Source of the DNA: a virus
UHGV virus genome: UHGV-1579991
Length of the DNA stretch: 64,000 nucleotides
Strand: one strand, 5' to 3'
The notes beneath the pieces are model-generated. The model had not been told where the DNA came from. It saw only the letters and a program-made list of their open reading frames with translations, and did no database searches. Each line of letters starts with the position of its first letter. Positions within the stretch are counted from its first letter, which is position 1. Both the position numbers and the translations under genes were made by a program. Below, piece by piece: positions 1,641 to 62,629 of this stretch.

Positions 1641-2337
1641 TTACGCATATTTAAGTGAGTTTTGAATTTCATAGACATGTATCATGCTTGACGTACCTGC
1701 AACAATTGCACTAAACGCATTCATCAAAGGCGCCACATAGTCTGACGCAACAAACTGCCATGGTTCACATGCTTGCAATGTGCCAGCTACACTGCCGCCA
1801 ATCGTGAACGCAGAATTCAATCTATTTGACGCCAATACTGCAGTAGCAGTTATTAAGTTATCACTAATCATAACTTCTGCATTGACTGATACTCGTCTTG
1901 TGAGATTTACAGAAGTTTCAATAGTGCCTGACAAAGAACCTGCACGTGAATTTGATATTGTCAATCTTGCAGAGTATAAGTCGGGGAAGTCTATATTCAA
2001 TGTCGTCCTGTTGCCATAAATGATAGTGAAACTATTTGATATTAGTGATGCATCAGCTTCGTTATTTGCATCAAGCAACGCAAAACTGTGCGGTCTTGTA
2101 GTATCACCAGCAAGTTCTTTGTATTTATTGCCACGTAGCACGAATGTCAAAGAGCCGTCTTCGAATGTAACGAAGTTTGCATTGTAGACATTACCAGTGT
2201 CTTCACAATATAGCCAAACTGGCAAGCCGCATACAGCATGGTCTGCGTTATCTGTAGCATACAATGTGATAATAGTGTCACGAAGAGCCCCCCGCGATTG
2301 ACTGCTGGCGTTCAAACCAGAGTTGAGTAGTTTTCAT
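1641..2337 (-). CDS. MKT-leader family protein D; leader and body are in different frames as sequenced (poly-G switch)
   Basis: Leader ORF MKTTQLWFERQQSIAGGSS* (ATG 2337, stop 2278-2280). Body frame is open 1641-2333 with no ATG (track start is TTG at 2315). C6 run 2288-2293; one fewer G gives ...QQSIAG-ALRDTIITLY... Confidence 0.5.
2288..2293 (-). repeat. homopolymeric tract, C6 on plus strand (G6 on coding strand), at leader/body junction of gene D
   Basis: Read directly from the sequence. Confidence 0.9.
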
Positions 2338-2406
2338 AAGCGAAAAGACTTTTGTATGTGAAATTTATTGACATATTATATATCATGCTGCACTACGCAC
2401 AAAAAG

Positions 2407-3131: not shown

Positions 3132-3731
3132 TCAAAGAATTTTCCAAGAAGCGTTTGATGTCAAATTCATTGTGATTGTCGTGCCATCATCATCAACTGT
3201 TACAGATTCTGTACTCAGCACAAGAGTTGCTGCAGCAGCTGCTTGAGTAATGCTAACATTCAATGATTTGCCACCAGGAGTTGTCACAGTCAATACAAAT
3301 GATTTCTGTTCAATTGTCAAATTTTGCGGCACTGTAACTTCAATTGACCAAGCAAACTTTGCAATATATCCTGGGTCATTTGCAATTGCAGCATCATTTG
3401 TTGCAGCAGTGCCATTTGCAGTGTACGCAGTCGGAATGTTAAGATTCGGATTTGCAGTTGCAAATTTTAGCTTTGCTGCATTAGACTCACCAGAAACGAC
3501 AATTTTTGTGGTGGCTGCAGTCACATTGTATGATGCTGTGCCAGATACAAATTCTGCAAGAGCAGCTTGGTTGATTGTTGCTTGCTTTGTAACTGTTGGT
3601 GTGGTCTTCGTTTGCACAGTCGCAATTGTGCTACGAATGCCTCTGCCGGTATGAGCTCCTGCAGTAAATGCCAGGATGTCATTGCCCTCACCAGACATCG
3701 GTGAACACTGTGCCCATATAGCTTTTGCCAT
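3132..3731 (-). CDS. protein with Ig/BACON-like N-terminal domain (paralog 2 of 3), 199 aa
   Basis: N-terminus MAKAIWAQCSPMSGEGND...AHTGR; C-terminus is Thr/Ala-rich and variable. Confidence 0.7.
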   Translation of the reverse strand: MAKAIWAQCSPMSGEGNDILAFTAGAHTGRGIRSTIATVQTKTTPTVTKQATINQAALAEFVSGTASYNVTAATTKIVVSGESNAAKLKFATANPNLNIPTAYTANGTAATNDAAIANDPGYIAKFAWSIEVTVPQNLTIEQKSFVLTVTTPGGKSLNVSITQAAAAATLVLSTESVTVDDDGTTITMNLTSNASWKIL

Positions 3732-3802
3732 TGTTACTGTGCAATTTTTAATTGTTTGACATATTATTTATATGCATTGCTTAAGCAATGTTGAATTGAC
3801 AT

Positions 3803-15277: not shown

Positions 15278-15304
15278 ATCAGTTAATTTGTTTGTATATG
15301 TATT

Positions 15305-15377
15305 CGAATGTGCACACATGAGAATAGGTCTCTTCGAATGTGCACATATGAGAATAGTCTCTTCGAATATGCGCACA
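15305..15377. repeat. tandem direct repeat, about 30-bp unit x 2.5 (cgaatgtgcacacatgagaataggtctctt)
   Basis: Read directly from the sequence; lies between a terminator hairpin and the next gene start. Confidence 0.7.
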
Positions 15378-15381
15378 AAAA

Positions 15382-15407
15382 GAAGAGCTTGCATATGCAA
15401 GCTCTTC
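15382..15407 (-). terminator. perfect palindromic hairpin (gaagagcttgcat/atgcaagctcttc) downstream of the gene ending at 15450
   Basis: About 12-bp stem; T-run follows on the minus strand. Confidence 0.55.
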
Positions 15408-18208: not shown

Positions 18209-19105
18209 TTACAGTGTTCCGCAAAGCAATTCACGTAAATCCATGCCAGCTTGTGTACTATACTGAGCAATAAGATTACGTTCTGAATCAGACATGCTCC
18301 AATAAATCTTATGCTGAGCTCTACGAATAATAGTATGAATGCCAGATGTGCTACAATTGAACTTCTTTGCAAGTTCTGCATGAGTTAGCAAATCAGCATC
18401 ACCAAGGCCATACACATGTGTGAGTACAAGCTTTTCATTTTGAGTGAGTTGTTCAAATGCTCTTTGCAGAATCTTTGTGTTGCGTTTGTGAGCATCCTCG
18501 ATTTCAAGAACTTCTTGGCCTGTTTTGAAGTCTGACCTCAAATCATTCTGAACTGGTGACCATGCATCACCATCTTTGTCAAGTGTAGTGTCATCCTTGC
18601 TGGTGAATTGTTTGCCTTCAAGAGCTCTTTCATATGCTCCACGAATGCCAGTAGATAATTGTTGACTTGTCAAATTGAGTTCATCAAGTACATATTTCTT
18701 AATCCAAGGATATGCATATGTGCTAAACTTTGCTTCACGAACTCCTGCAGGCAATACGCCTTCTACATAATTCTTGGCTGCTATTGACAATCCAAGATTG
18801 CCTGCTTGAATGACATCATCCAGCGGAACTGAGCGTTTGCCAGATGCGAACCATAAGCTTCGTGCAACTGATATGACCAGTCTTAAGCAAGATTTGATAA
18901 GAGCTTCACGATTTTCTTGAGTCTTCTTGAATCGAGTAACATCACAATATCGCTTTGCAGTAGCCAGCGATTTGACTTCTTCAGGAGTAAGCTCATTCTC
19001 CATCCTCATTTGCTTGAGCTCCTCCTTTGTGTATAGACGTTCTCTTGTTATTCTACCTACGTCCTTTACGTAGCCTTGATTGATTTGTGAATTTGAACCT
19101 GCCAT
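18209..19105 (-). CDS. sigma-70 family RNA polymerase sigma factor, 298 aa
   Basis: Region-2-like FSTYAYPWIKKYV and region-4-like HTH (LTHAELAKKFNCSTSGIHTIIRRAQHKI). Confidence 0.65.
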   Translation of the reverse strand: MAGSNSQINQGYVKDVGRITRERLYTKEELKQMRMENELTPEEVKSLATAKRYCDVTRFKKTQENREALIKSCLRLVISVARSLWFASGKRSVPLDDVIQAGNLGLSIAAKNYVEGVLPAGVREAKFSTYAYPWIKKYVLDELNLTSQQLSTGIRGAYERALEGKQFTSKDDTTLDKDGDAWSPVQNDLRSDFKTGQEVLEIEDAHKRNTKILQRAFEQLTQNEKLVLTHVYGLGDADLLTHAELAKKFNCSTSGIHTIIRRAQHKIYWSMSDSERNLIAQYSTQAGMDLRELLCGTL

Positions 19106-21837: not shown

Positions 21838-21890
21838 ATCTTCAAATTGTATTTAGGATATGTACCAAACAAACAAAAAGCTTGACTTAT

Positions 21891-22382: not shown

Positions 22383-23000
22383 TTACAAATGCACATTAAC
22401 GCTTGTAACAAGGTCGCAATCAATCAATGCTTTGAGCGTGTCAATTTCATTGTATCCGAATGCGCGTGTAGCAGCAAGCACGTGATTGACATCGACTGCA
22501 GCAGTAATGTCAACTACAACAGTCTTGTCATCTTCAAGTGGCTGCAAACGCTTGATGAGTTGATGCAGCATATCATCTGCTGGTACACTTGGCTGTTGCA
22601 CAGATTCAGCAACATAAGTGGTTTTGACTGGCTGTTGAGCAGGATACGTGGGCACAGGTGACACGGGTTCAATGGGTCGTTCTGTTTGCGGTGCTACAAT
22701 TGGCTGAGTTGGCAAAATGGTCTCTGACACAGTGCTGCCATCTGCTGCAGTTGTAGATACACTTGGAATCACTATTGGTTGAGAAAACACGTCATCTTGA
22801 GGGCGATTCCAAGTTTCAATTTCAGACAATGCATAAAGACGATTTTGACTGTCCCATGCCTTGTCAGCTTCTTCGTCAATTGCAACAATTGTCCGAATTT
22901 CTGCCGTTGCTGGTCTATCGCCATTTTCAAGCTGTTCAATGACTCTGATAGGCGCTATTGATGTTCGTGCCATATTTGGATGGTTTTTTATATTGTACAA
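22383..23000 (-). CDS. hypothetical protein with Pro-rich linker, about 200 aa
   Basis: ORF; true start may be the internal MARTS methionine. Confidence 0.55.
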   Translation of the reverse strand: MYNIKNHPNMARTSIAPIRVIEQLENGDRPATAEIRTIVAIDEEADKAWDSQNRLYALSEIETWNRPQDDVFSQPIVIPSVSTTAADGSTVSETILPTQPIVAPQTERPIEPVSPVPTYPAQQPVKTTYVAESVQQPSVPADDMLHQLIKRLQPLEDDKTVVVDITAAVDVNHVLAATRAFGYNEIDTLKALIDCDLVTSVNVHL

Positions 23001-23098
23001 CGCAAAGCATGCTTTTGCATCTGTGCATGCTATTTTATGCTAAGTACCCTGTGTAAAATAGTGAAATGCTTATTTTACGCAGGGTGCATCAAGTTAAA

Positions 23099-36728: not shown

Positions 36729-36757
36729 TTGAGATATTCAATATATGTACATATAAT
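36729..36757 (+). promoter_or_regulatory. sigma70-like promoter candidate TTGAGA-N17-TATAAT upstream of terL
   Basis: Hexamers with 17-nt spacer; -10 element ends about 21 nt before ATG 36779; a 7-bp inverted repeat (atattga-N5-tcaatat) overlaps the -35 element. Confidence 0.45.
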
Positions 36758-41397: not shown

Positions 41398-41500
41398 ATT
41401 TGGGATGGACTCTTACGTTTATTTAAGAATAAAGTACCACAAGTTGTCAAGTTTTGCTAACTTTGACGACTTGTGGTACGTCTGTTTTATGCATGCACTG

Positions 41501-41894: not shown

Positions 41895-41970
41895 TTGTTT
41901 TGATGCAAAATGCAAAACAATATAAAATTGTTTTGATGCAAAATGCAAAACAATATAAAATTGTTTTGAT
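41895..41970. repeat. tandem direct repeat, 33-bp unit x about 2.3 (ttgttttgatgcaaaatgcaaaacaatataaaa)
   Basis: Read directly from the sequence; intergenic, upstream of the Cys-rich gene; each unit carries two TGCAAAA half-sites. Confidence 0.8.
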
Positions 41971-44110: not shown

Positions 44111-44554
44111 TCATTGCAATTGTTTTTGATACGCTATCAATTCATTAAGCAGTTCATCTGCATGACATTGAACAAGTAGTTGCCACGTTTTTGAATCAAT
44201 GTCTTCAGTTTGCATGTACAAGTCTACTACTCGTTTGTCAAACTTGTTTATTGCATCTATAGTAGCATTACTTACAGGCTTGTCAACTTTCTTACCGCTG
44301 ATAAAAGACCATTTTGGCTGTCTTGCATTACTAAGTTCTCTATGATAAGCATTCATAACTTGTGTCATGTCCATACCGAGTTTGTTGAATGCTTGAGCAA
44401 TCTGCGGAAAGGCTATGGCAACATTGCGATTTGTCATGAATGCATTGTCTGCTTTTTGTTTTGCAGTCAACTTATCATAATCGCTATCACGAACATACAG
44501 CAACTCCTTAAATTTGAAGAAGTCTACTTTTTGTGTGATGAATTGTTCTGCCAT
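44111..44554 (-). CDS. hypothetical protein, 147 aa
   Basis: ORF in the array. Confidence 0.55.
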   Translation of the reverse strand: MAEQFITQKVDFFKFKELLYVRDSDYDKLTAKQKADNAFMTNRNVAIAFPQIAQAFNKLGMDMTQVMNAYHRELSNARQPKWSFISGKKVDKPVSNATIDAINKFDKRVVDLYMQTEDIDSKTWQLLVQCHADELLNELIAYQKQLQ

Positions 44555-44608
44555 TGAAGTTTATTGTTATATAGTGATATAATACAACAAAAATCTCAAA
44601 TTTGCACA

Positions 44609-45118
44609 CTACGATGGCTTTTTGTCATCAAATTTGAAAATGACTGGCATTGCAGAATCAGGCTTTATGTCGCCTTTGTTAACTGCGTCATTTAAGCATT
44701 CTACAATCTTTTTGCCAAGGTCTTTTACTTCTGCAGGAATTTTCTCGTATGGCACATTTGATGACAGTTGAAGCTCATTTTGCTGATGCTCGTTTTGTTG
44801 AAGCTCTGCTGTTTCAGATAGCTGCTTGTCAATTCGAGTAAACATCAATTCATCACGTGCATCAATAAATTCTTGAATTGCTTGCAGCTGCTCAATGCTG
44901 CATATGACAACACATTGCAATAAGTTTGATGCATCATAGAATGACATGCCAATAATTCGTGTAGTGTCACAATCGAATGCGCAATTGATGTCTTTCAATG
45001 TGTCCATAAATGACATTGATAAGTCTTCAATGCCTGATACATCTGCAATGCTGAACACAAATTGTGTGCTGCCAACGCATTCATGCTCATCTGAAAATAT
45101 GAGCTTATCTACTGTCAT
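44609..45118 (-). CDS. hypothetical protein, 169 aa
   Basis: ORF in the array. Confidence 0.55.
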   Translation of the reverse strand: MTVDKLIFSDEHECVGSTQFVFSIADVSGIEDLSMSFMDTLKDINCAFDCDTTRIIGMSFYDASNLLQCVVICSIEQLQAIQEFIDARDELMFTRIDKQLSETAELQQNEHQQNELQLSSNVPYEKIPAEVKDLGKKIVECLNDAVNKGDIKPDSAMPVIFKFDDKKPS

Positions 45119-48890: not shown

Positions 48891-48934
48891 TTGTTGTTTG
48901 TTGATATATGTAAAAATATTGTACAACAATACTG

Positions 48935-50126
48935 TCATTTTTGCACAGCATGGCCGCAATCGTACACAGGCACATAACCAGCGTCAAGCATTTGTTGTTC
49001 ATCTACTTCTGCAGTATGCGCAGCATACAGTCGCTTCTTGTAATTCCACCAATGTTTTCTAATAGTCAATTTGTCATTGCATATGACAGGATTTTTTGAC
49101 AAGTCTGTGCTATCTACACGTTCATTGCATAAATGCTGTCGTATGATTTCTACAACGTCATCAGGGTTATCCCAATCCCATATTGTAATGCATATGTAGC
49201 CTGCTGTAAGTGCTGCTTGAGTTTTTCTAAAATGTCTATCATTAGGAATTGGCAAATTGCGTTTAGATTTGCCAATTGCATATGCAAAGCCAAATGCAGC
49301 ATTATGTGAAAACGATGGGTTGATTTCTATTAGTAGATGCTTATAATGCAAATCATAAGAAAATCTGCCAATATTGACATCATCAAATGTGCAATCAATG
49401 TTAAGTCGTTGCAGCAAAAAATCATGCCACCAACGATTAACCGTTGTAATGGTGCGCCCATTAGCATGCCGACAACGCTCAGTCATAACAAACCAAGGTA
49501 CACCATAGCGTTCAAGATTTGTTTGCATGCGTTTTGCAGTGCCACCATATTCATCACCGTATCGTAATCTGCGTGTATGAACTGCTTTTAATGGGTTGCC
49601 AGCAGAATTGCCATATCGTAGCATCTTTGTTTGCTGCGCTTTAGCAGTAATTACACCATGGTCAGGATAGTGTTCGCGTATTGTTTGCTGCACTTTAGTA
49701 GCATTCCATGTGCGATAGCCGTACTTGTGTAATTTTGTTTGCTGGGCTTTTTGCATGTTGTTATAATATGGGTCGCCATAGCGTTCTTCTTTAATTTTGC
49801 ACATTAACTGTTGGTCGCCAAATGCATTGCCATATTTTGCAAGTTTTGTTGCCTTAAATTTAGTCATGTCGCCAAGCCCATTGCCATATCTTTCTCGTTT
49901 TGTTGCGACACCTTTGTTTGTAAATTCTTTTTAATTGCGCAGTGTTTTCAACACCATATTTACGCAAATTGCTTATACGACTGTTATATGTACGTTTGCA
50001 AATTGTGTATTGTGAGTAGCGTTTATGCTGAGGTCGTTCTTTAGACGCAGTTTGCAATATCACATCTCTTTCCTCTTCAAGTTCTTTTATGCGAGCTTCA
50101 AGAGCTTCTCCAGTTAATGGTTCCAT
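48935..50126 (-). pseudogene. repeat-rich (RYG-x-G) homing-endonuclease-like gene, paralog 3, split by a frameshift
   Basis: Two overlapping ORFs (49860-50126 and 48935-49867); homology to paralog 2 continues across a T5 run at about 49928-49932 only if one base is removed. Confidence 0.6.
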
Positions 50127-53962: not shown

Positions 53963-54029
53963 ATTTTGTTGATGCTTTTGTTTGGTCAAAATTATATTGA
54001 ATATGATACAACACTTGTGACATTTTTGC

Positions 54030-54671
54030 TTAGAATGCGACACCGACATGTGCGCCAATCATAGCAGCTTTTGAGTCAACTTGCTTCATGCAGCCAGCAT
54101 CAATACCGACACGCCATTGTAAACTACCTTTGCCAAATTGACGAGTGTATGACAGCCAATACATGTCAATTGATTGCTTGTCAAATGTGCCAAATGCATA
54201 ATGAAAGTCTACATTATTTCGTGGCGCATCATGGTCAATGACTTTAATTGTCGTAGTTTGCACTTCACGAATGACTGTGTCTGCTTTGAACATCAAAACG
54301 TCCCAATCACGTTGCTTAATTGCGTTTTGTGTGACATAGTCTTTTATTGCTATTTGCAGTTTGTCTGACTTCAATGTGTCTGCGTACTCATATTGTGCAA
54401 AGTAGTCATTAACATAATGCATAAGCTTTGTTGTGTCAATGTCAACTACAAGAGTCGTGTCACAATACACTGGCACTGGTATTGTCTTGCCAGGTATATG
54501 AACTGTGTCGTGTTTAATGAATGTGTCAACTTTGACAATTGGCTCTGCATTTATAGCATCTTGATATGTTTGCCAGTCTTTTGGGCTGACAAAATGCCAA
54601 TCTTTGAAAATCATGACAGCAGTCAATACAATGACTGCTGTCATGACTATGATTTTGAGTGTCTTCAACAT
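54030..54671 (-). CDS. membrane-anchored protein, 213 aa
   Basis: N-terminal transmembrane segment IIVMTAVIVLTAVMIF. Confidence 0.55.
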   Translation of the reverse strand: MLKTLKIIVMTAVIVLTAVMIFKDWHFVSPKDWQTYQDAINAEPIVKVDTFIKHDTVHIPGKTIPVPVYCDTTLVVDIDTTKLMHYVNDYFAQYEYADTLKSDKLQIAIKDYVTQNAIKQRDWDVLMFKADTVIREVQTTTIKVIDHDAPRNNVDFHYAFGTFDKQSIDMYWLSYTRQFGKGSLQWRVGIDAGCMKQVDSKAAMIGAHVGVAF

Positions 54672-56273: not shown

Positions 56274-56310
56274 ATTGTCGAAATCTTGTTTGTGTTATAT
56301 GTACACAAAA

Positions 56311-57969: not shown

Positions 57970-58016
57970 TGTAGCTAATTTGATTTTATTTCCTATATTA
58001 TTGTACAACGATGTTG

Positions 58017-58190
58017 TTAGATTTGCATCATTTGAATATCTTCAAATCTGCAAAGCTGCGCAGTAGACTGAATACGGAATACTAAGAATACACCGCAATC
58101 AGTGACACGTTTAACAAGTGCATCTTCATTTGTAGGCGTATACAGTACAACATCCCAAGGTTCGAGTTGTTTTGCTTCTTCTGCTGTCAT
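58017..58190 (-). CDS. possible small ORF, 57 aa, below the track cut-off
   Basis: ATG at 58190 to TAA at 58017-58019 fills the gap between neighbouring genes: MTAEEAKQLEPWDVVLYTPTNEDALVKRVTDCGVFLVFRIQSTAQLCRFEDIQMMQI. Confidence 0.3.
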   Translation of the reverse strand: MTAEEAKQLEPWDVVLYTPTNEDALVKRVTDCGVFLVFRIQSTAQLCRFEDIQMMQI

Positions 58191-59174: not shown

Positions 59175-59418
59175 TTTGTGTATGTTCTTGATTTGCTTGT
59201 TCTGCTAAGTTGTTTATGAATGCTTTGAGCAATTCAATGATTGTTGTTAGTAACTGAATTTGAAACAATACAATGCTAAACATGACAATTGCTACAATGC
59301 AAATTGAAATGAAGAGCATATTGATGTCAAATTTGTTTGCTATCAATGTTTGCAGCCAAGTTATGACTGCAAACATTGAAATCAGTATGAATACTTTGTG
59401 CTGTGATAACGATTTCAT
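59152..59418 (-). CDS. small membrane protein with two predicted TM helices, 88 aa (holin-like topology, speculative)
   Basis: Hydrophobic segments VFILISMFAVITWL and FISICIVAIVMFSIVLF. Confidence 0.45.
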   Translation of the reverse strand: MKSLSQHKVFILISMFAVITWLQTLIANKFDINMLFISICIVAIVMFSIVLFQIQLLTTIIELLKAFINNLAEQANQEHTQNDSDTAN

Positions 59419-60134
59419 TTGAAATGTGCGGATGTCGGATTAGTGTCGGTCATTCTAATGTGCCAGTCATAAATGAACCATCTTGCGAGGTCATCATTTT
59501 TGATGTTATGAGTTTTGACATACTGTTCAGGGCCTAATGCCTCGCCGGTTTCAGGATTGACTGCGAAGTGGGATTCATCTACATTAGTAGACTTGTTTTT
59601 GATGTTTGAGATTCGGAGCTTTGTATGCAGTTCAGTGCCATCAGATTGCAGTGTTTTGACATAGAATGCAGTTTTTGTCGTTGCTTCATTGTCAAGCCAT
59701 ACACCGAACTTAACTCCGTGCGATTTCCAGTATGCATTGTCAGCATCCCTGATTGCTTTGAAGTTCGGGTCATCAAGCCAAGGCTTGAAGACATATACAG
59801 CATGTTGTTCCTTTCGAGTGATTTCGCCTTTGCCTTCACAAACTGTATGATACAGCCGCATTGCAGTTTCTTCATCGAAATAATAAGTCAGATTGCCTGG
59901 CTTATCGAATGTGCCAAACTGCTGACCATCGATTACGAGAATGAATGTGTAACGTGAATCCTTGAAGAACTCTACTCGTACAGGCTGTTTGTGCTGTCTG
60001 CTGTTAAGCAGTCTGTCAATTGTAATGACTGCCCAGTTGGTGCCTGTCTTTGTTTTGTTGCCGTGAAACAGTTCAGGATATGAAACTGTGTAAGGCAATG
60101 CTTTGTACTTCCAATGTTCATTAAAACTTTTCAT
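59415..60134 (-). CDS. hypothetical protein, 239 aa
   Basis: ORF in the array. Confidence 0.6.
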   Translation of the reverse strand: MKSFNEHWKYKALPYTVSYPELFHGNKTKTGTNWAVITIDRLLNSRQHKQPVRVEFFKDSRYTFILVIDGQQFGTFDKPGNLTYYFDEETAMRLYHTVCEGKGEITRKEQHAVYVFKPWLDDPNFKAIRDADNAYWKSHGVKFGVWLDNEATTKTAFYVKTLQSDGTELHTKLRISNIKNKSTNVDESHFAVNPETGEALGPEQYVKTHNIKNDDLARWFIYDWHIRMTDTNPTSAHFK

Positions 60135-60235
60135 ATGTAGAGATTTTTGTAGTTTGTATCAATTGCATTCTATATCAATTGCATCTTGTATCAAATACAT
60201 TATATTGATATATGATAATTGTACTACAAAAATCC

Positions 60236-60339
60236 CAAATTTGCACACTTTGATAATCAAAAGTGCAAACAAAATTCAAAGTTATATTGTACATCATAAA
60301 GTGCAAATTTGCACTTTATGATGCTGCAAAATGTTTGCA
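60236..60339. promoter_or_regulatory. cluster of TTTGCAC/GTGCAAA half-sites including a 20-bp perfect palindrome aaagtgcaaatttgcacttt (about 60298-60317)
   Basis: Read directly from the sequence; AT-rich intergenic region that also carries two atcaattgcat direct repeats (about 60158-60184). Confidence 0.4.
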
Positions 60340-60349
60340 TAAAAAAATA

Positions 60350-60373
60350 AGCAGCTTAGATTGCTAAGCTGCT
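60350..60373 (-). terminator. terminator-like hairpin (agcagcttag/attg/ctaagctgct) downstream of the membrane protein gene
   Basis: 10-bp stem; followed on the minus strand by a T7 run. Confidence 0.5.
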
Positions 60374-60397
60374 GTCATTGTATGTATGCAGTCACTG

Positions 60398-60883: not shown

Positions 60884-61258
60884 GCAAATATATTTTTGTT
60901 TGTATATGTACATAAAAGAGCAAGTTCTCCACATTGAGAACTTGCTCAGCTGACCTGTTACCAGGTGAAAGCGTGGTGCAGCACCTTGTGCTGCAATGGC
61001 TATGCTGCCATCGCCATAACGGGCTGAGCATTGCCCAGCATCATTACACGACCAGCTGCATTAAGCGTACGCTTTGCTTTGTTGAAAAATTTGCCAGTTA
61101 TCTGGTATCTGCACATCTATTCAAGCGACCTACTATGCAATCAAATGCCTGTCGAGCCCAATGTTTGAGCAGTTGTTTGTCAGATGCTCAGCTGACTGCA
61201 GTCTTTCTGAGTGTATCAAGTTCAGCGATTCTGCATCTTTGCTAAATGGCAATGGTTC

Positions 61259-61300
61259 AGGTGGACTCGCCGAGAATCGAACTCGGGTCTTACATAGCGC
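61259..61300 (-). other. tRNA 3'-half-like element (T-arm plus acceptor 3' strand) with no 5' partner
   Basis: CCGAG/TTCGATT/CTCGG T-arm followed by CGAGTCC-A-CC; no complementary 5' acceptor strand was found upstream. Confidence 0.2.
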
Positions 61301-61342
61301 ATCCTTGACTTGGTCCTGTAAACAGGGTTGTCAACATGCATT

Positions 61343-61413
61343 GCAATACGACAGGACTCGAACCTGCGACCTCGGATTGGACGTCCGCGCTCTTACCGCT
61401 GAGCTACGTATTC
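61343..61413 (-). tRNA. tRNA-like gene with canonical D- and T-arms but non-canonical anticodon arm (possible pseudo-tRNA)
   Basis: GCTC/AGCGGTAA/GAGC D-arm and GCAGG/TTCGAGT/CCTGT T-arm; acceptor stem 6 of 7 pairs; the region GTCCAAT could not be folded into a standard anticodon stem-loop by hand. Confidence 0.35.
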
Positions 61414-61506
61414 TTATCAATTGACTGCACTGCAATGCAATCAATCGTGCCAATGATATTTGACACGCATAATTGCAGTTATGCGTAACAATTCAAATGT
61501 CATTTG

Positions 61507-61579
61507 AGCCAACTGCAGGAATCGAACCTGTAACCTGCTGAGTACAAATCAGCTGCTCTACCAATTGAGCTAAGTTGGC
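61507..61579 (-). tRNA. tRNA-Thr (anticodon TGT)
   Basis: Hand-folded cloverleaf: 7-bp acceptor stem GCCAACT/AGTTGGC, D-arm GCTC..GAGC, anticodon stem GCTGA/TCAGC with loop TTTGTAC, T-loop TTCGATT; CCA not encoded. Confidence 0.8.
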
Positions 61580-61584
61580 ATAAA

Positions 61585-61658
61585 GTCGTTGGGCCATTGC
61601 AACCCAAACCTATCATCTTTGCCTAACCAAAGATGCAAGCGCTCTCTTACACCACGAC
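61585..61658 (-). other. tRNA-like element with irregular arms (possible degenerate tRNA)
   Basis: Acceptor-like pairing GTCGTGG/CCAACGAC (6 of 7) and a long hairpin CATCTTTG/GTTAGG/CAAAGATG; T-loop atypical. Confidence 0.2.
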
Positions 61659-61661
61659 TTG

Positions 61662-61733
61662 TAGCCGAACTTGGAGTCGAACCAAGCTTTCGAGAATGAA
61701 AATCTCGCGTCCTAACCGATAGACGAAACGGCC
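61662..61733 (-). tRNA. tRNA-Glu (anticodon TTC), with two mismatches in the acceptor stem
   Basis: D-stem GTCT/GGAC, anticodon stem CGAGA/TCTCG with loop TTTTCAT, T-arm CTTGG/TTCGACT/CCAAG; acceptor 5 of 7 pairs. Confidence 0.55.
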
Positions 61734-61916
61734 AAGAGCAGTTCAAGTCTGCAGCATTGAACTGCGGAAACAATGCCTGTACGGGCAACCAATTGTGCAG
61801 ATACAGCGACATTGCAAAATCACACCGAACCAAGTTTGTGGCTCTTCTGTCTCATAAAAACAAGTAATCATTACACTTGGCACCAATGATTTTGATGTAA
61901 AAATCGGTGTGTTACG

Positions 61917-62001
61917 CGGAGAGTAAGGGATTCGAACCCCTGGTACGTTGCCGTACAGTGGTTTTCAAGACCACCGCCATCGACCGCTCGGCCAACTCTC
62001 C
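61917..62001 (-). tRNA. tRNA-Ser (anticodon TGA), type II with long variable arm
   Basis: Acceptor GGAGAGT/ACTCTCC, D-arm GCCGAGCGGTCGATGGC, anticodon stem GTGGT/ACCAC with loop CTTGAAA, long variable arm, T-loop TTCGAAT. Confidence 0.8.
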
Positions 62002-62194
62002 ATAAAACATTGCATAAGCATTCTTATCTCTTGATGAGGCCAAGTAGCTAATTTGGCAAGTTTGTTATATCTATCGTGACTGTTGCAGTTTGTTGTCACT
62101 CAATACACAAAACTTTCGAACATTCATTGACAACACTGCAATATCGCTTTTTAAGCTCAGCCATCAATGTATTTATGCAATGTATAACAATTCG

Positions 62195-62276
62195 TAGCCA
62201 AACCGGGACTTGAACCCAGACTCCTAATGGAACAACATTTTGAGTGTTGCGTGTCTACCAATTCCACCATTTGGCC
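62195..62276 (-). tRNA. tRNA-Leu (anticodon CAA), type II
   Basis: Acceptor GGCCAAA/TTTGGCT, anticodon stem CAACA/TGTTG with loop CTCAAAA, 13-nt variable arm, T-loop TTCAAGT. Confidence 0.75.
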
Positions 62277-62373
62277 ATTTGCAAATGCAAGCTGTTTCAC
62301 AACTGTTTGCATTTGCATTTGCATTGTTTAACACACTAAAATATGATTCATCTAATCAAAAACCAGAGAATTG

Positions 62374-62446
62374 TCGAGAATGTGCGATTTGAACGCCAAT
62401 TATACGTCCCAAACGTATCGTGTTACCGGATTACACTACATTCTCG
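62374..62446 (-). tRNA. tRNA-Pro (anticodon TGG), with irregular D-arm and T-stem
   Basis: Acceptor CGAGAAT/ATTCTCG perfect; anticodon stem ATACG/CGTAT with loop TTTGGGA; T-loop TTCAAAT. Confidence 0.6.
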
Positions 62447-62453
62447 TTAATTG

Positions 62454-62524
62454 TTGAACTGTCTGGACTCGAACCAGAAATATATCATCCAAAGTGATAT
62501 GTGTTACCATTACACCACAGCTCA
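62454..62524 (-). tRNA. tRNA-Gln (anticodon TTG)
   Basis: Acceptor TGAGCTG/CAGTTCA (one G-T pair), D-stem GTGT/ACAC, anticodon stem TATCA/TGATA with loop CTTTGGA, T-arm TCTGG/TTCGAGT/CCAGA. Confidence 0.8.
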
Positions 62525-62629
62525 GTATATAATGTATGCTTGTGTTATTATGTATATTTGTTAGTAATTATATGAATAATATACTACATTTATTTATGAT
62601 TTGCACCATATACTGCAACTTTGTATCAC

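What the first reader, a model, noticed from the sequence alone, without database searches (positions are those of the whole stretch)
60140..60340. Intergenic cluster of TGCAAA-type half-sites and a 20-bp perfect palindrome next to the tRNA cluster
The 260-nt AT-rich gap upstream of the gene starting at 60134 contains two atcaattgcat direct repeats, then caaatttgcacac, aagtgcaaac, the perfect palindrome aaagtgcaaatttgcacttt and tgcaaaatgtttgca. Related sites occur upstream of the gene starting at 44554 (caaatttgcacac at about 44597, in an almost identical 25-nt context), in the 33-bp tandem repeats at 41895-41970 and upstream of the sigma gene (ttttgcacat at about 19176). This looks like a recurring operator or iteron for a dimeric DNA-binding protein.
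Basis: partly seen in the sequence, partly recalled or inferred. Interest (0 to 1): 0.55.

Follow-up and report, generated by a model that had tools for sequence, protein, structure and literature searches.

The report
Stacked phage promoters with a palindrome
The "TGCAAA half-sites" are mostly the upstream (-35) boxes of a promoter type that recurs in front of this uncultured phage's replication and tRNA genes. Two or three copies are stacked in this gap, and one sits inside a 32-bp perfect palindrome, so this is ordinary phage gene-control DNA with one unexplained feature.

Summary
The sequences are real, but the short TGCAAA/TTTGCA words are not informative. TGCA-containing hexamers are the commonest in the whole window. 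GTGCAAATTTG with up to 2 mismatches occurs 76 times against 76 expected.

The composite TGCAAA-N16-TAnnAT is highly non-random: 6 exact hits against 0.99 expected. All are on the coding strand and directly upstream of gene starts. With near variants there are at least 7 strong members in the window. They lie before the tRNA cluster, twice in this gap, and before the topoisomerase IIA, clamp-loader, ligase-operon and 23.0 kb genes. More lie outside the window.

In related strains the box and the TA..AT positions stay fixed while spacers change. The distant relatives PAU and MA9V-1 have the same layout with a different box. The gap therefore holds a terminator, a decayed promoter copy, promoters P1 and P2, and a 16-bp repeat with variable copy number in the leader.

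The palindrome is 32 bp, not 20. One strain keeps it perfect through a mirrored double substitution. It could be an operator or a stem-loop of the kind seen in T4-type promoter/terminator cassettes.

The 33-bp repeats at 41.9 kb and the site before the sigma gene do not fit the promoter model. I found no support for an iteron or origin reading. Novelty is modest.

The parts
60341..60373 (-). Intrinsic terminator of the upstream unit (tRNA cluster, possible tmRNA, 178-aa membrane-protein ORF). The hairpin is 60373-60350 and is followed by TTATTTTTTTA.
   Evidence: Terminator scan: 10-bp stem, 5 G-C pairs, T run. RNA fold -14.5 kcal/mol, z -3.9. The upstream ORF on the minus strand is the real one: better protein conservation and third-position substitutions.
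60313..60339 (-). Decayed promoter-like copy ('site a'): TGCAAA (60339-60334), N15, TAAAGT (60318-60313).
   Evidence: In position it corresponds to promoter P1 of the divergent relative L008, which lies directly after the terminator (GTGCAAA-N15-TATAAT). The scores for this site printed are all negative. Its TGCAAA...TTTGCA symmetry is broken in strains L006 and L007 (TGCAGA).
60292..60323 (.). 32-bp perfect palindrome CATCATAAAGTGCAAA|TTTGCACTTTATGATG. It covers the P1 box and the whole spacer and ends at the -10 element.
   Evidence: longest palindrome in the window. Hairpin -21.7 kcal/mol, z -6.6. Strain L007 has T>C and A>G at mirror positions, which is 2 of only 3 differences in 189 nt. 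Strain L003 has one substitution that breaks an outer pair. The palindrome is absent from L008.
60286..60314 (-). Promoter P1: GTGCAAA (60314-60308), N16, TACAAT (60291-60286).
   Evidence: Exact hit of TGCAAA-N16-TAnnAT. PWM score 36.8 bits. Aligned with the other members.
60277..60307 (-). Overlapping match to the Bacteroidota-type promoter: TTTG, N19, TAACTTTG.
   Evidence: It is the only such match on the minus strand, and the only non-coding one on either strand. It is not conserved in L008, so its meaning is uncertain.
60260..60269 (+). Third copy of AAAGTGCAAA, inverted relative to the P1 box, between P1 and P2.
   Evidence: (pair I6). The promoter model does not explain it. It is conserved in three strains and absent from L008.
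60218..60248 (-). Promoter P2: GTGTGCAAATTTGGGATTTTTGTAG-TACAAT. The box is 60245-60240 and the -10 is 60223-60218.
   Evidence: 39.6 bits. Conserved in L008 as ATGCAAA-N16-TACTAT with the same downstream TTATCATATA. P1 and P2 are a 68-nt tandem duplication (family D2).
60147..60205 (-). 16-bp tandem repeat (ATGCAATTGATAyAGA on the minus strand) in the leader between P2 and the ATG.
   Evidence: 2.6 copies. There are 5.6 perfect copies plus degenerate flanking units in strain L006. Absent from L008. The leader has no significant RNA structure (z -1.1).
59415..60134 (-). First gene of the downstream operon, 239 aa, function unknown. It is followed by 88-aa, 322-aa and 57-aa ORFs and the topoisomerase IIA gene.
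   Evidence: No family hit was found. Only 2 homologues turned up in the large protein search. The structure model was unusable.
62578..62606 (-). Same promoter class in front of the 7-tRNA cluster: GTGCAAA-N16-TATATT.
   Evidence: 30.8 bits. In other strains the -10 changes to TAATAT or TATTAT while the box is unchanged.
58000..58028 (-). Same class in front of the topoisomerase IIA gene: ATGCAAA-N16-TACAAT.
   Evidence: (34.9 bits).
48918..48946 (-). Same class in front of the clamp-loader gene: GTGCAAA-N16-TACAAT.
   Evidence: (37.9 bits). In strain L024 the spacer is heavily substituted, but the box is unchanged and the -10 is still TA..AT.
44579..44609 (-). Same class in front of the 147-aa gene and NAD-ligase operon: GTGTGCAAATTTGAGATTTTTGTTG-TATTAT.
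   Evidence: (39.0 bits).
22992..23020 (-). Same class in front of the 196-aa gene (ATG at 22973): ATGCAAA-N16-TACAAT.
   Evidence: 28.5 bits.
54003..54030 (-). Weaker candidate: AGCAAA-N16-TATCAT, about 80 nt before the 1186-aa gene.
   Evidence: PWM 17.2 bits, which is inside the range of the null maxima. Sequence conserved in strain L022.
41431..41458 (-). Weaker candidate: AGCAAA-N16-TACTTT, before the 335-aa gene.
   Evidence: PWM 11.5 bits, not above the null. It lies in an intergenic region.
18209..19105 (-). Phage sigma-70-family factor with regions 2 and 4. It is a candidate reader of the promoter class.
   Evidence: Pfam Sigma70_r2 and Sigma70_r4, and PHROG 351. NCBIfam sigma-70 family. 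Homologues in MA9V-1/2, PAU and PTm1/5.

Best explanation
The gap 60135-60397 is a promoter region, not an array of operators or iterons.

Reading the coding (minus) strand, the order is:
- an intrinsic terminator that closes the tRNA / 178-aa unit;
- a decayed promoter copy;
- two intact tandem promoters, P1 and P2, of the phage's main promoter class for replication and tRNA genes;
- a 16-bp repeat of variable copy number in the untranslated leader;
- the 239-aa gene that heads the topoisomerase operon.

The class consensus is rTGCAAA, then 16 nt ending in TGTwG, then TAyWAT. TGCAAA lies where a -35 element would lie and TAyWAT is the -10 element.

Inferred, not shown: host core RNA polymerase carrying the phage's own sigma-70-family protein (18209-19105) reads these promoters. 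Its region 2 would contact the clade-conserved G-TAyWAT and its region 4 the phage-specific box.

The 32-bp palindrome lies over the P1 box and spacer. It is most likely a control element specific to P1. It would be either an operator for a dimeric repressor or a stem-loop of the kind found in T4-type promoter/terminator cassettes. It is not part of the general motif.
For: Shown:
- TGCAAA-N16-TAnnAT has 6 exact hits against 0.99 expected, and 0 of 100 shuffles reach 6. All hits are on the coding strand just upstream of gene starts.
- A position weight matrix built from 10 instances separates 7 window sites (28-40 bits) from everything else (17 bits or less). Null maxima were 16-26 bits.
- Two more members lie within the 6 kb beyond the window end, one of them before the topoisomerase IIB gene, and one lies elsewhere in the genome.
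- In strains 4-9% divergent the box never changes and the -10 keeps TA..AT (TACAAT, TATTAT, TACTAT, TAATAT). Spacers accumulate substitutions.
- Both promoters are conserved in the only divergent relative, L008 (65% protein identity in the downstream gene). The palindrome, the extra half-site and the 16-bp repeats are not.
- Strain L007 carries a third tandem module and L006 a partial one, so whole modules are gained and lost.
- Syntenic distant relatives show the same geometry with a different box. PAU has GAAACT-N16-TAnnAT, 10 hits against 0.39 expected, preceded by cGTAG. MA9V-1 has ATGTCr-N17-19-TAyTAT, 10 hits against 0.87 expected.
- All these phages encode a homologue of the sigma factor.

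Background: group 2 jumbo phages lack their own RNA polymerase and are proposed to redirect host polymerase with phage sigma factors (PMC7824862).

For the palindrome: it is perfect over 32 bp, abuts the -10, and shows a mirrored compensatory change.
Against: - There are no transcription start or expression data. The promoter assignment is by sequence logic only.
- The box matches the canonical -35 TTGACA at only 3 of 6 positions.
- The host is unknown, so a host sigma factor, alone or with a phage activator, cannot be excluded.
- Replication and tRNA genes are usually early or middle genes. If the phage sigma reads these promoters, it would have to be made earlier, yet I could not recognise a promoter before the sigma gene.
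- MA9V-1 and PTm1 promoters also carry the host-type TAnnTTTG, so host sigma may act in those phages.
- I found no DNA-binding protein that could bind the palindrome.
- The mirrored substitution could arise from hairpin-templated mutation rather than from selection.
- The position weight matrix was scored on its own training sites.
Confidence: 0.75

Rival explanations
1. Operator array. AAAGTGCAAA half-sites bind a dimeric phage regulator that represses or activates several operons. The palindrome would be the strongest site and the other copies auxiliary sites.
For: The 32-bp perfect palindrome keeps its symmetry through a mirrored double change. A third, inverted AAAGTGCAAA copy between P1 and P2 is not explained by the promoter model, and the 10-mer occurs only in this gap. 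CAAATTTG, which is itself a palindrome, follows the box in P1, P2, the 44.6 kb promoter and L016.
Against: Outside P1 there is no dyad. GCAAATTTGC occurs once. Every other copy is a single box in one orientation at fixed distance from a -10 element. The palindrome and the extra half-site are absent from L008, while the boxes are kept. No helix-turn-helix or other DNA-binding domain was found in the neighbouring small proteins. This reading is best seen as an added layer at P1, not as the explanation of the recurring motif.
Confidence: 0.3
2. Stem-loop of a composite promoter/terminator cassette, as in T4-type PeSL elements. The P1 palindrome would act as RNA or DNA secondary structure. It would attenuate read-through from upstream or serve as a recombination point for module shuffling, and would not be a protein-binding site.
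For: PeSLs combine a promoter with a stem-loop that lies between, or overlaps, the -35 and -10 boxes. They mark indels between close relatives (PMC2839356; PMC4122927). In PAU the box sits in the loop of terminator hairpins whose stems differ between copies. Strain L007's extra module has its own dyad, GTGC-N6-GCAC, in the same position, and module number differs between strains. The compensatory T-A to C-G change is what base pairing predicts. The hairpin is strong (-21.7 kcal/mol).
Against: No U run follows the hairpin, and a canonical terminator lies only about 30 nt upstream, so a second terminator seems redundant. Most members of the class have no comparable stem. The L007 P0 hairpin is not better than shuffled sequence (z -0.85).
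Confidence: 0.25
3. Replication origin. The 16-bp direct repeats would be iterons and the palindrome and AT-rich DNA an unwinding or loading site. The promoters might prime replication as at T4 oriF/oriG.
For: The gap is AT-rich, holds direct repeats, a long palindrome and promoters, and lies at the head of the replication-gene module next to the tRNAs. T4 origins do combine a middle promoter with an unwinding element (my own knowledge, not checked here).
Against: Repeat number varies from 3 to about 7 between near-identical strains. The repeats and the palindrome are missing from L008. The 16-bp period is 1.5 helical turns. There is no change of GC-skew trend at 60 kb, although the uniform gene orientation makes this uninformative. 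No initiator protein was recognised and the 239-aa model failed.
Confidence: 0.08
4. Host-sigma promoters. The class would be read by the host's primary sigma factor, possibly helped by a box-binding activator in the manner of T4 MotA/AsiA, and not by the phage sigma.
For: The genes served (tRNAs, topoisomerase, clamp loader, ligase) are typical early or middle genes. TAYWAT is also the -10 consensus reported for T4/PST early promoters (PMC4122927). The 11-nt box GTGCAAATTTG ends 12 nt before the -10, a MotA-box-like geometry (the geometry is from my own knowledge). P1 overlaps a perfect Bacteroidota-type TTTG-N19-TAnnTTTG.
Against: If the host is a Bacteroidota member, its sigma A needs TAnnTTTG. 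A Bacteroidota host is suggested by 0 of 47 genes having a Shine-Dalgarno sequence, by the closest relatives infecting Chryseobacterium and Tenacibaculum, and by PMC6847099. Of the members whose sequence I examined, only P1 (downstream TAACTTTG) and the L016 copy outside the window (TAAATTTG in the spacer) carry TAnnTTTG. The box differs from every canonical -35. I did not specifically look for MotA or AsiA homologues, and none appeared in the family scans I ran.
Confidence: 0.25

Closest known systems
PeSL / PmSL composite promoter-terminator cassettes of T4-type phages (Arbiol et al. 2010, PMC2839356; Comeau et al. 2014, PMC4122927)
   Same: Short intergenic cassettes with a terminator or stem-loop plus a two-part promoter (hexamer, N16-17, TAYWAT). 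They are dispersed in front of many genes. The stem-loop may overlap the -35 box and spacer. Intact and decayed copies cluster near indels between close relatives. Here, strain L007 has an extra module and site a is a decayed copy.
   Different: The box here is TGCAAA, not a sigma-70 -35 (TTGACA or TTTACW) and not a Mot box (TGCTT). There is no Shine-Dalgarno sequence. Most members lack a stem-loop. The members precede core replication genes and tRNAs rather than orphan genes in hyperplastic regions. Recombination or mini-circle formation was not tested.
T4 middle promoters (MotA box plus sigma-70 -10, sigma appropriation by MotA/AsiA)
   Same: A phage-specific box replaces the canonical -35 at a fixed distance of about 12 nt from a TAnnnT -10, in front of replication and tRNA genes (geometry; T4 facts from my own knowledge and PMC4122927).
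   Different: The box sequence is unrelated to the MotA box. No MotA or AsiA homologue was identified. This phage carries an RpoD-like sigma factor, which T4 lacks.
Promoter classes read by phage-encoded sigma factors (for example Bacillus phage SPO1 gp28 and gp33/34; group 2 jumbo phages, PMC7824862)
   Same: The phage encodes a sigma-70-family protein with regions 2 and 4. It also has a promoter class whose -35 is unlike that of any host. The same design, with a different box, is present in relatives that share the sigma gene.
   Different: The link between this sigma factor and this promoter class is inferred only. In SPO1 and T4 the phage sigma factors serve middle or late genes, whereas here the class serves replication and tRNA genes.
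Intergenic promoter motifs of Sphingomonas phage PAU and Chryseobacterium phage MA9V-1
   Same: Replication modules are syntenic. The layout is hexamer, N16-19, G-TAyWAT. The run-up to the -10 is shared (cGTAG-TATAAT in PAU, tGTAG-TACAAT here), as is part of the downstream sequence (TTCATATAATTA).
   Different: The box is GAAACT in PAU, where it lies in a terminator loop, and ATGTCA in MA9V-1. MA9V-1 and PTm1 also carry the host-type TAnnTTTG.

Membership tests
Two-part sigma-70-type promoter class | Two conserved elements at a fixed spacing of 16-17 bp | tested here: met
   TGCAAA-N16-TAnnAT: 6 hits against 0.99 expected. Alignment of 11 instances, ten with N16 and one with N15.
Two-part sigma-70-type promoter class | Located upstream of genes, on the coding strand, at leader distance from the start codon | tested here: met
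   All exact hits are on the minus strand. The ATG lies 20-50 nt downstream except at P1 and P2, which are stacked. 5 of 10 minus-strand N15-17 hits fall in the non-coding DNA, which is about 7% of the window.
Two-part sigma-70-type promoter class | The key -10 positions (T-12, A-11, T-7) and the -35 box stay fixed while the spacer drifts | tested here: met
   Strain comparison: the box is unchanged, the -10 varies only at inner positions, and spacers are substituted.
Two-part sigma-70-type promoter class | -35 resembles TTGACA | tested here: not met
   GTGCAA or TGCAAA matches TTGACA at 3 of 6 positions (read directly from the sequences).
Two-part sigma-70-type promoter class | Transcripts start 5-9 nt downstream of the -10 | not testable with these tools
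   No transcript data are available.
Dyad operator of a dimeric regulator | Inverted-repeat symmetry of the site | tested here: met
   Met only at P1: 32-bp perfect palindrome, with a mirrored compensatory change in L007.
Dyad operator of a dimeric regulator | The same dyad recurs at the other regulated genes | tested here: not met
   GCAAATTTGC occurs once in the window. P2 and the 44.6, 48.9, 58.0 and 62.6 kb promoters carry a single oriented box.
Dyad operator of a dimeric regulator | A cognate DNA-binding protein is encoded by the phage | tested here: inconclusive
   No DNA-binding domain was found in 20 neighbouring proteins scanned against Pfam. Many phage proteins were not scanned.
Iterons / replication origin | Three or more conserved direct repeats with fixed number and phasing | tested here: not met
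   The 16-bp unit has 2.6-3 copies here and about 7 in L006, and is absent from L008.
Iterons / replication origin | Adjacent initiator gene, or a strand-skew switch | tested here: inconclusive
   The 239-aa protein has no family hit and its model is poor (pLDDT 42). The skew is monotonic, but all genes are on one strand.
PeSL-type promoter/terminator cassette | A promoter and a stem-loop combined in one short intergenic unit | tested here: met
   The P1 hairpin overlaps the box and spacer, and a terminator lies directly upstream. Most other members lack a stem, so this is met for P1 only.
PeSL-type promoter/terminator cassette | Association with indels between close relatives, and decayed copies nearby | tested here: met
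   L007 has a 75-nt extra module, L006 has a 22-nt remnant, and site a is a decayed copy.
PeSL-type promoter/terminator cassette | Near-consensus host sigma-70 promoter and a Shine-Dalgarno sequence at the 3' end | tested here: not met
   The box is TGCAAA. 0 of 47 genes have AGGA, GGAG or GAGG upstream.
Bacteroidota sigma A promoter (TTTG-N19-21-TAnnTTTG) | A -7 element TAnnTTTG with a -33 TTTG | tested here: not met
   On the minus strand only P1 matches, and it is the only non-coding match on either strand. I saw no full TTTG-N18-21-TAnnTTTG at the other members.
T4 middle (MotA-dependent) promoter | MotA box TGCTTtA about 12 bp upstream of the -10, with MotA and AsiA genes | tested here: not met
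   The geometry is similar, but the box sequence is different. No MotA or AsiA hit appeared in the PHROG or Pfam scans I ran. The search did not cover the whole genome.

The most novel reading that the evidence does not exclude
The PAU / MA9V / PTm-like phages, including this human-gut member of about 180 kb, would share a transcription system. A conserved phage RpoD-like sigma factor would read a clade-wide extended -10 (G-TAyWAT). Its region 4 and the -35 box (TGCAAA, GAAACT, ATGTCA) would have co-diverged in each lineage. In this phage the head of the replication operon would additionally be controlled through a 32-bp palindromic operator, or would double as a transcription-activated origin.
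Probability: 0.3. Interest if true: 0.5.

Novelty: new member of a known kind. Interest (0 to 1): 0.33.

Why it matters
The result gives a usable promoter consensus, rTGCAAA-N16-TAyWAT, for an uncultured human-gut phage of about 180 kb. This phage is a relative of the jumbo phages PAU, MA9V and PTm, whose regulation is unstudied.

The result also shows that the same promoter design, with a lineage-specific box, runs through that clade. This makes the specificity of the clade's own sigma factor directly testable.

It helps annotation by marking operon boundaries and correcting several gene starts. It is also a caution: in a genome where TGCA is 4.7-fold over-represented, short "half-sites" carry no information by themselves. 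This is not a new kind of system.

Tried and rejected
- Looking for divergent relatives of the gap. The protein search, IMG/VR and the JGI metagenome scan gave only near-identical strains, plus one 65%-identical relative on 1.2-1.4 kb contigs.
- Pattern scans of IMG/VR. The pattern TGTAGTACNATTATCATATA found only unrelated coding hits outside this phage.
- Walking along the 181-kb contig.
- Bacteroidota-type promoter scan. Only one full match on the minus strand, so this was rejected as the general explanation.
- RNA element in the gap or leader. No Rfam family reaches threshold there, and the leader fold is not significant.
- Divergent-promoter reading. A gene caller had placed a plus-strand 112-aa ORF upstream, but conservation favours the minus-strand 178-aa ORF. 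The gap therefore lies between genes of the same orientation.
- Candidate regulator or initiator. Pfam, PHROG and NCBIfam scans of neighbouring proteins gave nothing. The AlphaFold model of the 239-aa protein had pLDDT 42, so no fold search was run.
- Membership of the sigma-gene upstream site and the 33-bp repeats. Rejected by the position weight matrix. At 19.18 kb the box TGTGCAAAA is present, but no -10 follows at N15-18.
- Literature. I found no published promoter description for MA9V-1, PAU or PTm1.
Full report
**Setting**

The window is positions 657-64656 of a 181-kb metagenomic phage contig. It is 100% identical to locus L001 over the 14.6 kb they share. Two IMG/VR genomes of 175 kb are 91-97% identical strains.

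Almost all genes lie on the minus strand. Positions 1-36 kb hold structural genes and a sigma-70-family gene at 18209-19105. Positions 39-64 kb hold replication genes: clamp loader, exonuclease, NAD ligase and topoisomerase II. A cluster of seven tRNA genes lies at 61343-62524.

The terminase, topoisomerase IIA and sigma proteins hit Chryseobacterium phages MA9V-1/2 best, followed by Sphingomonas phage PAU; the terminase and sigma proteins also hit Tenacibaculum phages PTm1/5. The replication module is syntenic with MA9V-1 and PAU. None of 47 start codons has a Shine-Dalgarno core upstream, and the leaders are A-rich. This fits the Bacteroidota style of translation initiation (PMC6847099, seen). 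The host is therefore probably a Bacteroidota member, but that is an inference.

**The observation**

There are three corrections:
- The palindrome is 32 bp and perfect (60292-60323). It is the longest in the window.
- The ATCAATTGCAT copies are part of a 16-bp tandem repeat.
- The context shared with 44.6 kb is the 23-mer GTGTGCAAATTTGRGATTTTTGT, present exactly twice with none expected.

The short words are uninformative:
- TGCA is 4.7-fold over-represented throughout, mostly as xxT-GCA. GCA is the strongly preferred alanine codon.
- TTTGCA is the commonest hexamer in the window.
- TGCAAA is as frequent in coding DNA as in non-coding DNA.
- GTGCAAA is, if anything, under-represented: 25 against 40 expected.
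- GTGCAAATTTG with up to two mismatches occurs exactly as often as in shuffles: 76 against 76.

**What recurs**

On the coding strand, P1, P2 and the 44.6 kb site share GTGCAAATTTG, then 11 nt, then GTAyWAT.

The general pattern TGCAAA-N16-TAnnAT gives six exact hits against 0.99 expected. All are on the minus strand and immediately before gene starts:
- 60313 (P1) and 60245 (P2);
- 58027, before topoisomerase IIA;
- 48945, before the clamp loader;
- 44606, before the 147-aa gene and ligase operon;
- 23019, before the 196-aa gene.

The tRNA cluster is preceded by GTGCAAA-N16-TATATT at 62605.

A weight matrix built from ten instances scores these seven sites at 28-40 bits. The next site scores 17 bits, and the null maxima were 16-26 bits. 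This scoring is partly circular, because the matrix was trained on these sites. Independent support comes from:
- two further members in the 6 kb beyond the window, one of them before topoisomerase IIB;
- one member elsewhere in the genome (L016);
- both promoters of the divergent relative L008;
- a third tandem module present only in strain L007.

**Footprinting across strains**

Where strains differ, the box is unchanged. The -10 changes only at inner positions (TACAAT, TATTAT, TACTAT, TAATAT), so TA..AT is kept. Spacers take several substitutions. This is the pattern expected of -35 and -10 elements.

In L008 the downstream protein is 65% identical. There both boxes, both -10 elements and the sequence just after the P2 -10 are kept. 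The palindrome, the inverted extra half-site and the 16-bp repeats are missing.

**Anatomy of the gap (minus strand)**

The upstream ORF is the minus-strand 178-aa membrane protein, not the plus-strand 112-aa ORF that a gene caller chose. The gap is therefore not a divergent promoter region. Its parts, in order, are:
- the terminator, 60373-60350, plus a T run;
- site a, TGCAAA-N15-TAAAGT, at the position of L008's P1. Its symmetry is broken in other strains, so it is probably a decayed module;
- P1 inside the palindrome;
- an inverted AAAGTGCAAA at 60260-60269;
- P2;
- three 16-bp repeat units, about seven in strain L006;
- the ATG at 60134.

P1 and P2 are a 68-nt tandem duplication (family D2). 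Module number differs between strains.

**The palindrome**

It runs from about -44 to -13 of P1 and ends at the -10. From the palindrome to the ATG (189 nt), the window and L007 differ at only three positions. Two of these are mirror positions of the palindrome, T>C and A>G. By my estimate this has a chance probability of about 10^-3. Either symmetry is selected, or the change was templated by the hairpin itself. L003 carries a single change that breaks an outer pair. As a hairpin the palindrome would be very stable (-21.7 kcal/mol, z -6.6), but no U run follows it.

There are two readings.
- It may be an operator for a dimeric repressor of P1. No candidate protein was found.
- It may be the stem-loop of a composite promoter/terminator cassette like the PeSLs of T4-type phages. 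In PeSLs the stem-loop lies between or over the -35 and -10 boxes, and the cassettes mark indels between close relatives (PMC2839356; PMC4122927). PAU shows this design clearly, with its box in the loop of terminator hairpins. L007's extra module has a GTGC-N6-GCAC dyad in the same place.

**Who reads the promoters**

The relatives show the same geometry with other boxes. PAU has GAAACT-N16-TAnnAT, 10 hits against 0.39 expected, with cGTAG before the -10. MA9V-1 has ATGTCr-N17-19-TAyTAT, 10 hits against 0.87 expected, usually with the host-type TATATTTG just upstream. PTm1 promoters look mainly host-type.

All of these phages carry the sigma homologue. The comparative literature places such phages in a group that lacks its own RNA polymerase and is thought to redirect host polymerase through phage sigma factors (PMC7824862).

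A conserved G-TAyWAT across phages whose listed hosts fall in different phyla, combined with a lineage-specific box, is most simply explained by the phage sigma factor. The near absence of the Bacteroidota TAnnTTTG from this class points the same way. This step is inferred. A host sigma factor, with or without a MotA-like activator, remains possible.

**Claimed relatives that fail**

The 33-bp repeats at 41895-41970 are 2.3 perfect copies, and one strain has one copy fewer. They carry TTTGCA in the opposite orientation on the coding strand and their own dyad, CAAAACAAT-N5-ATTGTTTTG. No position in them passes the 10-bit cutoff of the matrix scan.

The site before the sigma gene has the box TGTGCAAAA, but no -10 follows at the right distance, and it scores -7.6 bits or less. 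It may be a box-only remnant.

**Verdict**

This is an ordinary regulatory region: stacked promoter cassettes of a phage-specific class. It has one unexplained element (the maintained 32-bp palindrome) and a repeat of variable copy number in the leader. It is a new member of a known kind. I found no support for an origin or iteron reading.

Noticed in passing
window 60909-61351, minus strand (core 61000-61320): Possible phage-encoded two-piece (permuted) tmRNA directly after the tRNA cluster. ARAGORN calls a permuted tmRNA with a tag ending ...PVMAMAA*. Rfam tmRNA_permuted (RF04321) matches its full length at 30.7 bits, below the gathering score of 47, with E = 4e-4. A terminator follows at 60947-60918.
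   Followed up: partly
whole window: Extreme oligonucleotide bias. GATC and CTAG are almost absent (6 each on both strands, observed/expected 0.01). TGCA is 4.7-fold over-represented. CC/GG is at 0.52 and TA at 0.56. The GATC loss looks like restriction avoidance. The TGCA excess follows from alanine GCA codons preceded by codons ending in T.
   Followed up: partly
window about 735-741, 850-858 and 1455-1465: Homopolymer G/C runs of 7-10 nt in and between small paralogous ORFs at the start of the window. They could be slippage-prone phase-variable tracts or assembly noise.
   Followed up: no
window 2275-2383; L016 8824-8932; L001 293-361: A repeat of about 110 bp (97% identity), present at least three times in the genome. 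It carries a terminator followed by TTTTTGTGCG. In L016 it lies directly upstream of a TGCAAA-class promoter, in inverted orientation.
   Followed up: partly
window 15300-15407, minus strand: A 26-bp perfect palindrome (15382-15407) is an intrinsic terminator followed by TTTTTGTGCG. After it come about 2.5 tandem copies of a roughly 30-bp unit, TGTGCACATTCGAAGAGACnTATTCTCAT, upstream of the baseplate-wedge gene. The listed TTG start at 15400 is probably wrong.
   Followed up: no
window 41895-41970: A 33-bp tandem repeat, 2.3 perfect copies, with one copy fewer in strain L024. Each unit has the dyad CAAAACAAT-N5-ATTGTTTTG. It lies upstream of a lysine/alanine-rich 121-aa ORF (ATG at about 41866). 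It is a separate regulatory candidate.
   Followed up: partly
window 21858-21865, 56297-56304, 36743-36750, 799-806; also 3760-3775: A second promoter-like motif, GTACATAT, without the TGCAAA box, often right after terminators. A T4-late-like TATAAATA lies before the gene at 3731. Together they could represent another promoter class.
   Followed up: no
L154 (Sphingomonas phage PAU, record positions 11078-52301): PAU genes also lack Shine-Dalgarno sequences, and the stretch examined has 31% G+C. Both are odd for a Sphingomonas host. PAU promoters (GAAACT-N16-TATAAT) are embedded in terminator hairpins, with the box in the loop.
   Followed up: partly
window 58008, 48959, 23000, 54058, 15400: Several longest-ORF starts (TTG) fall inside promoters or terminators. 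The real starts are the downstream ATGs, for example 57969, 22973 and 53923.
   Followed up: partly
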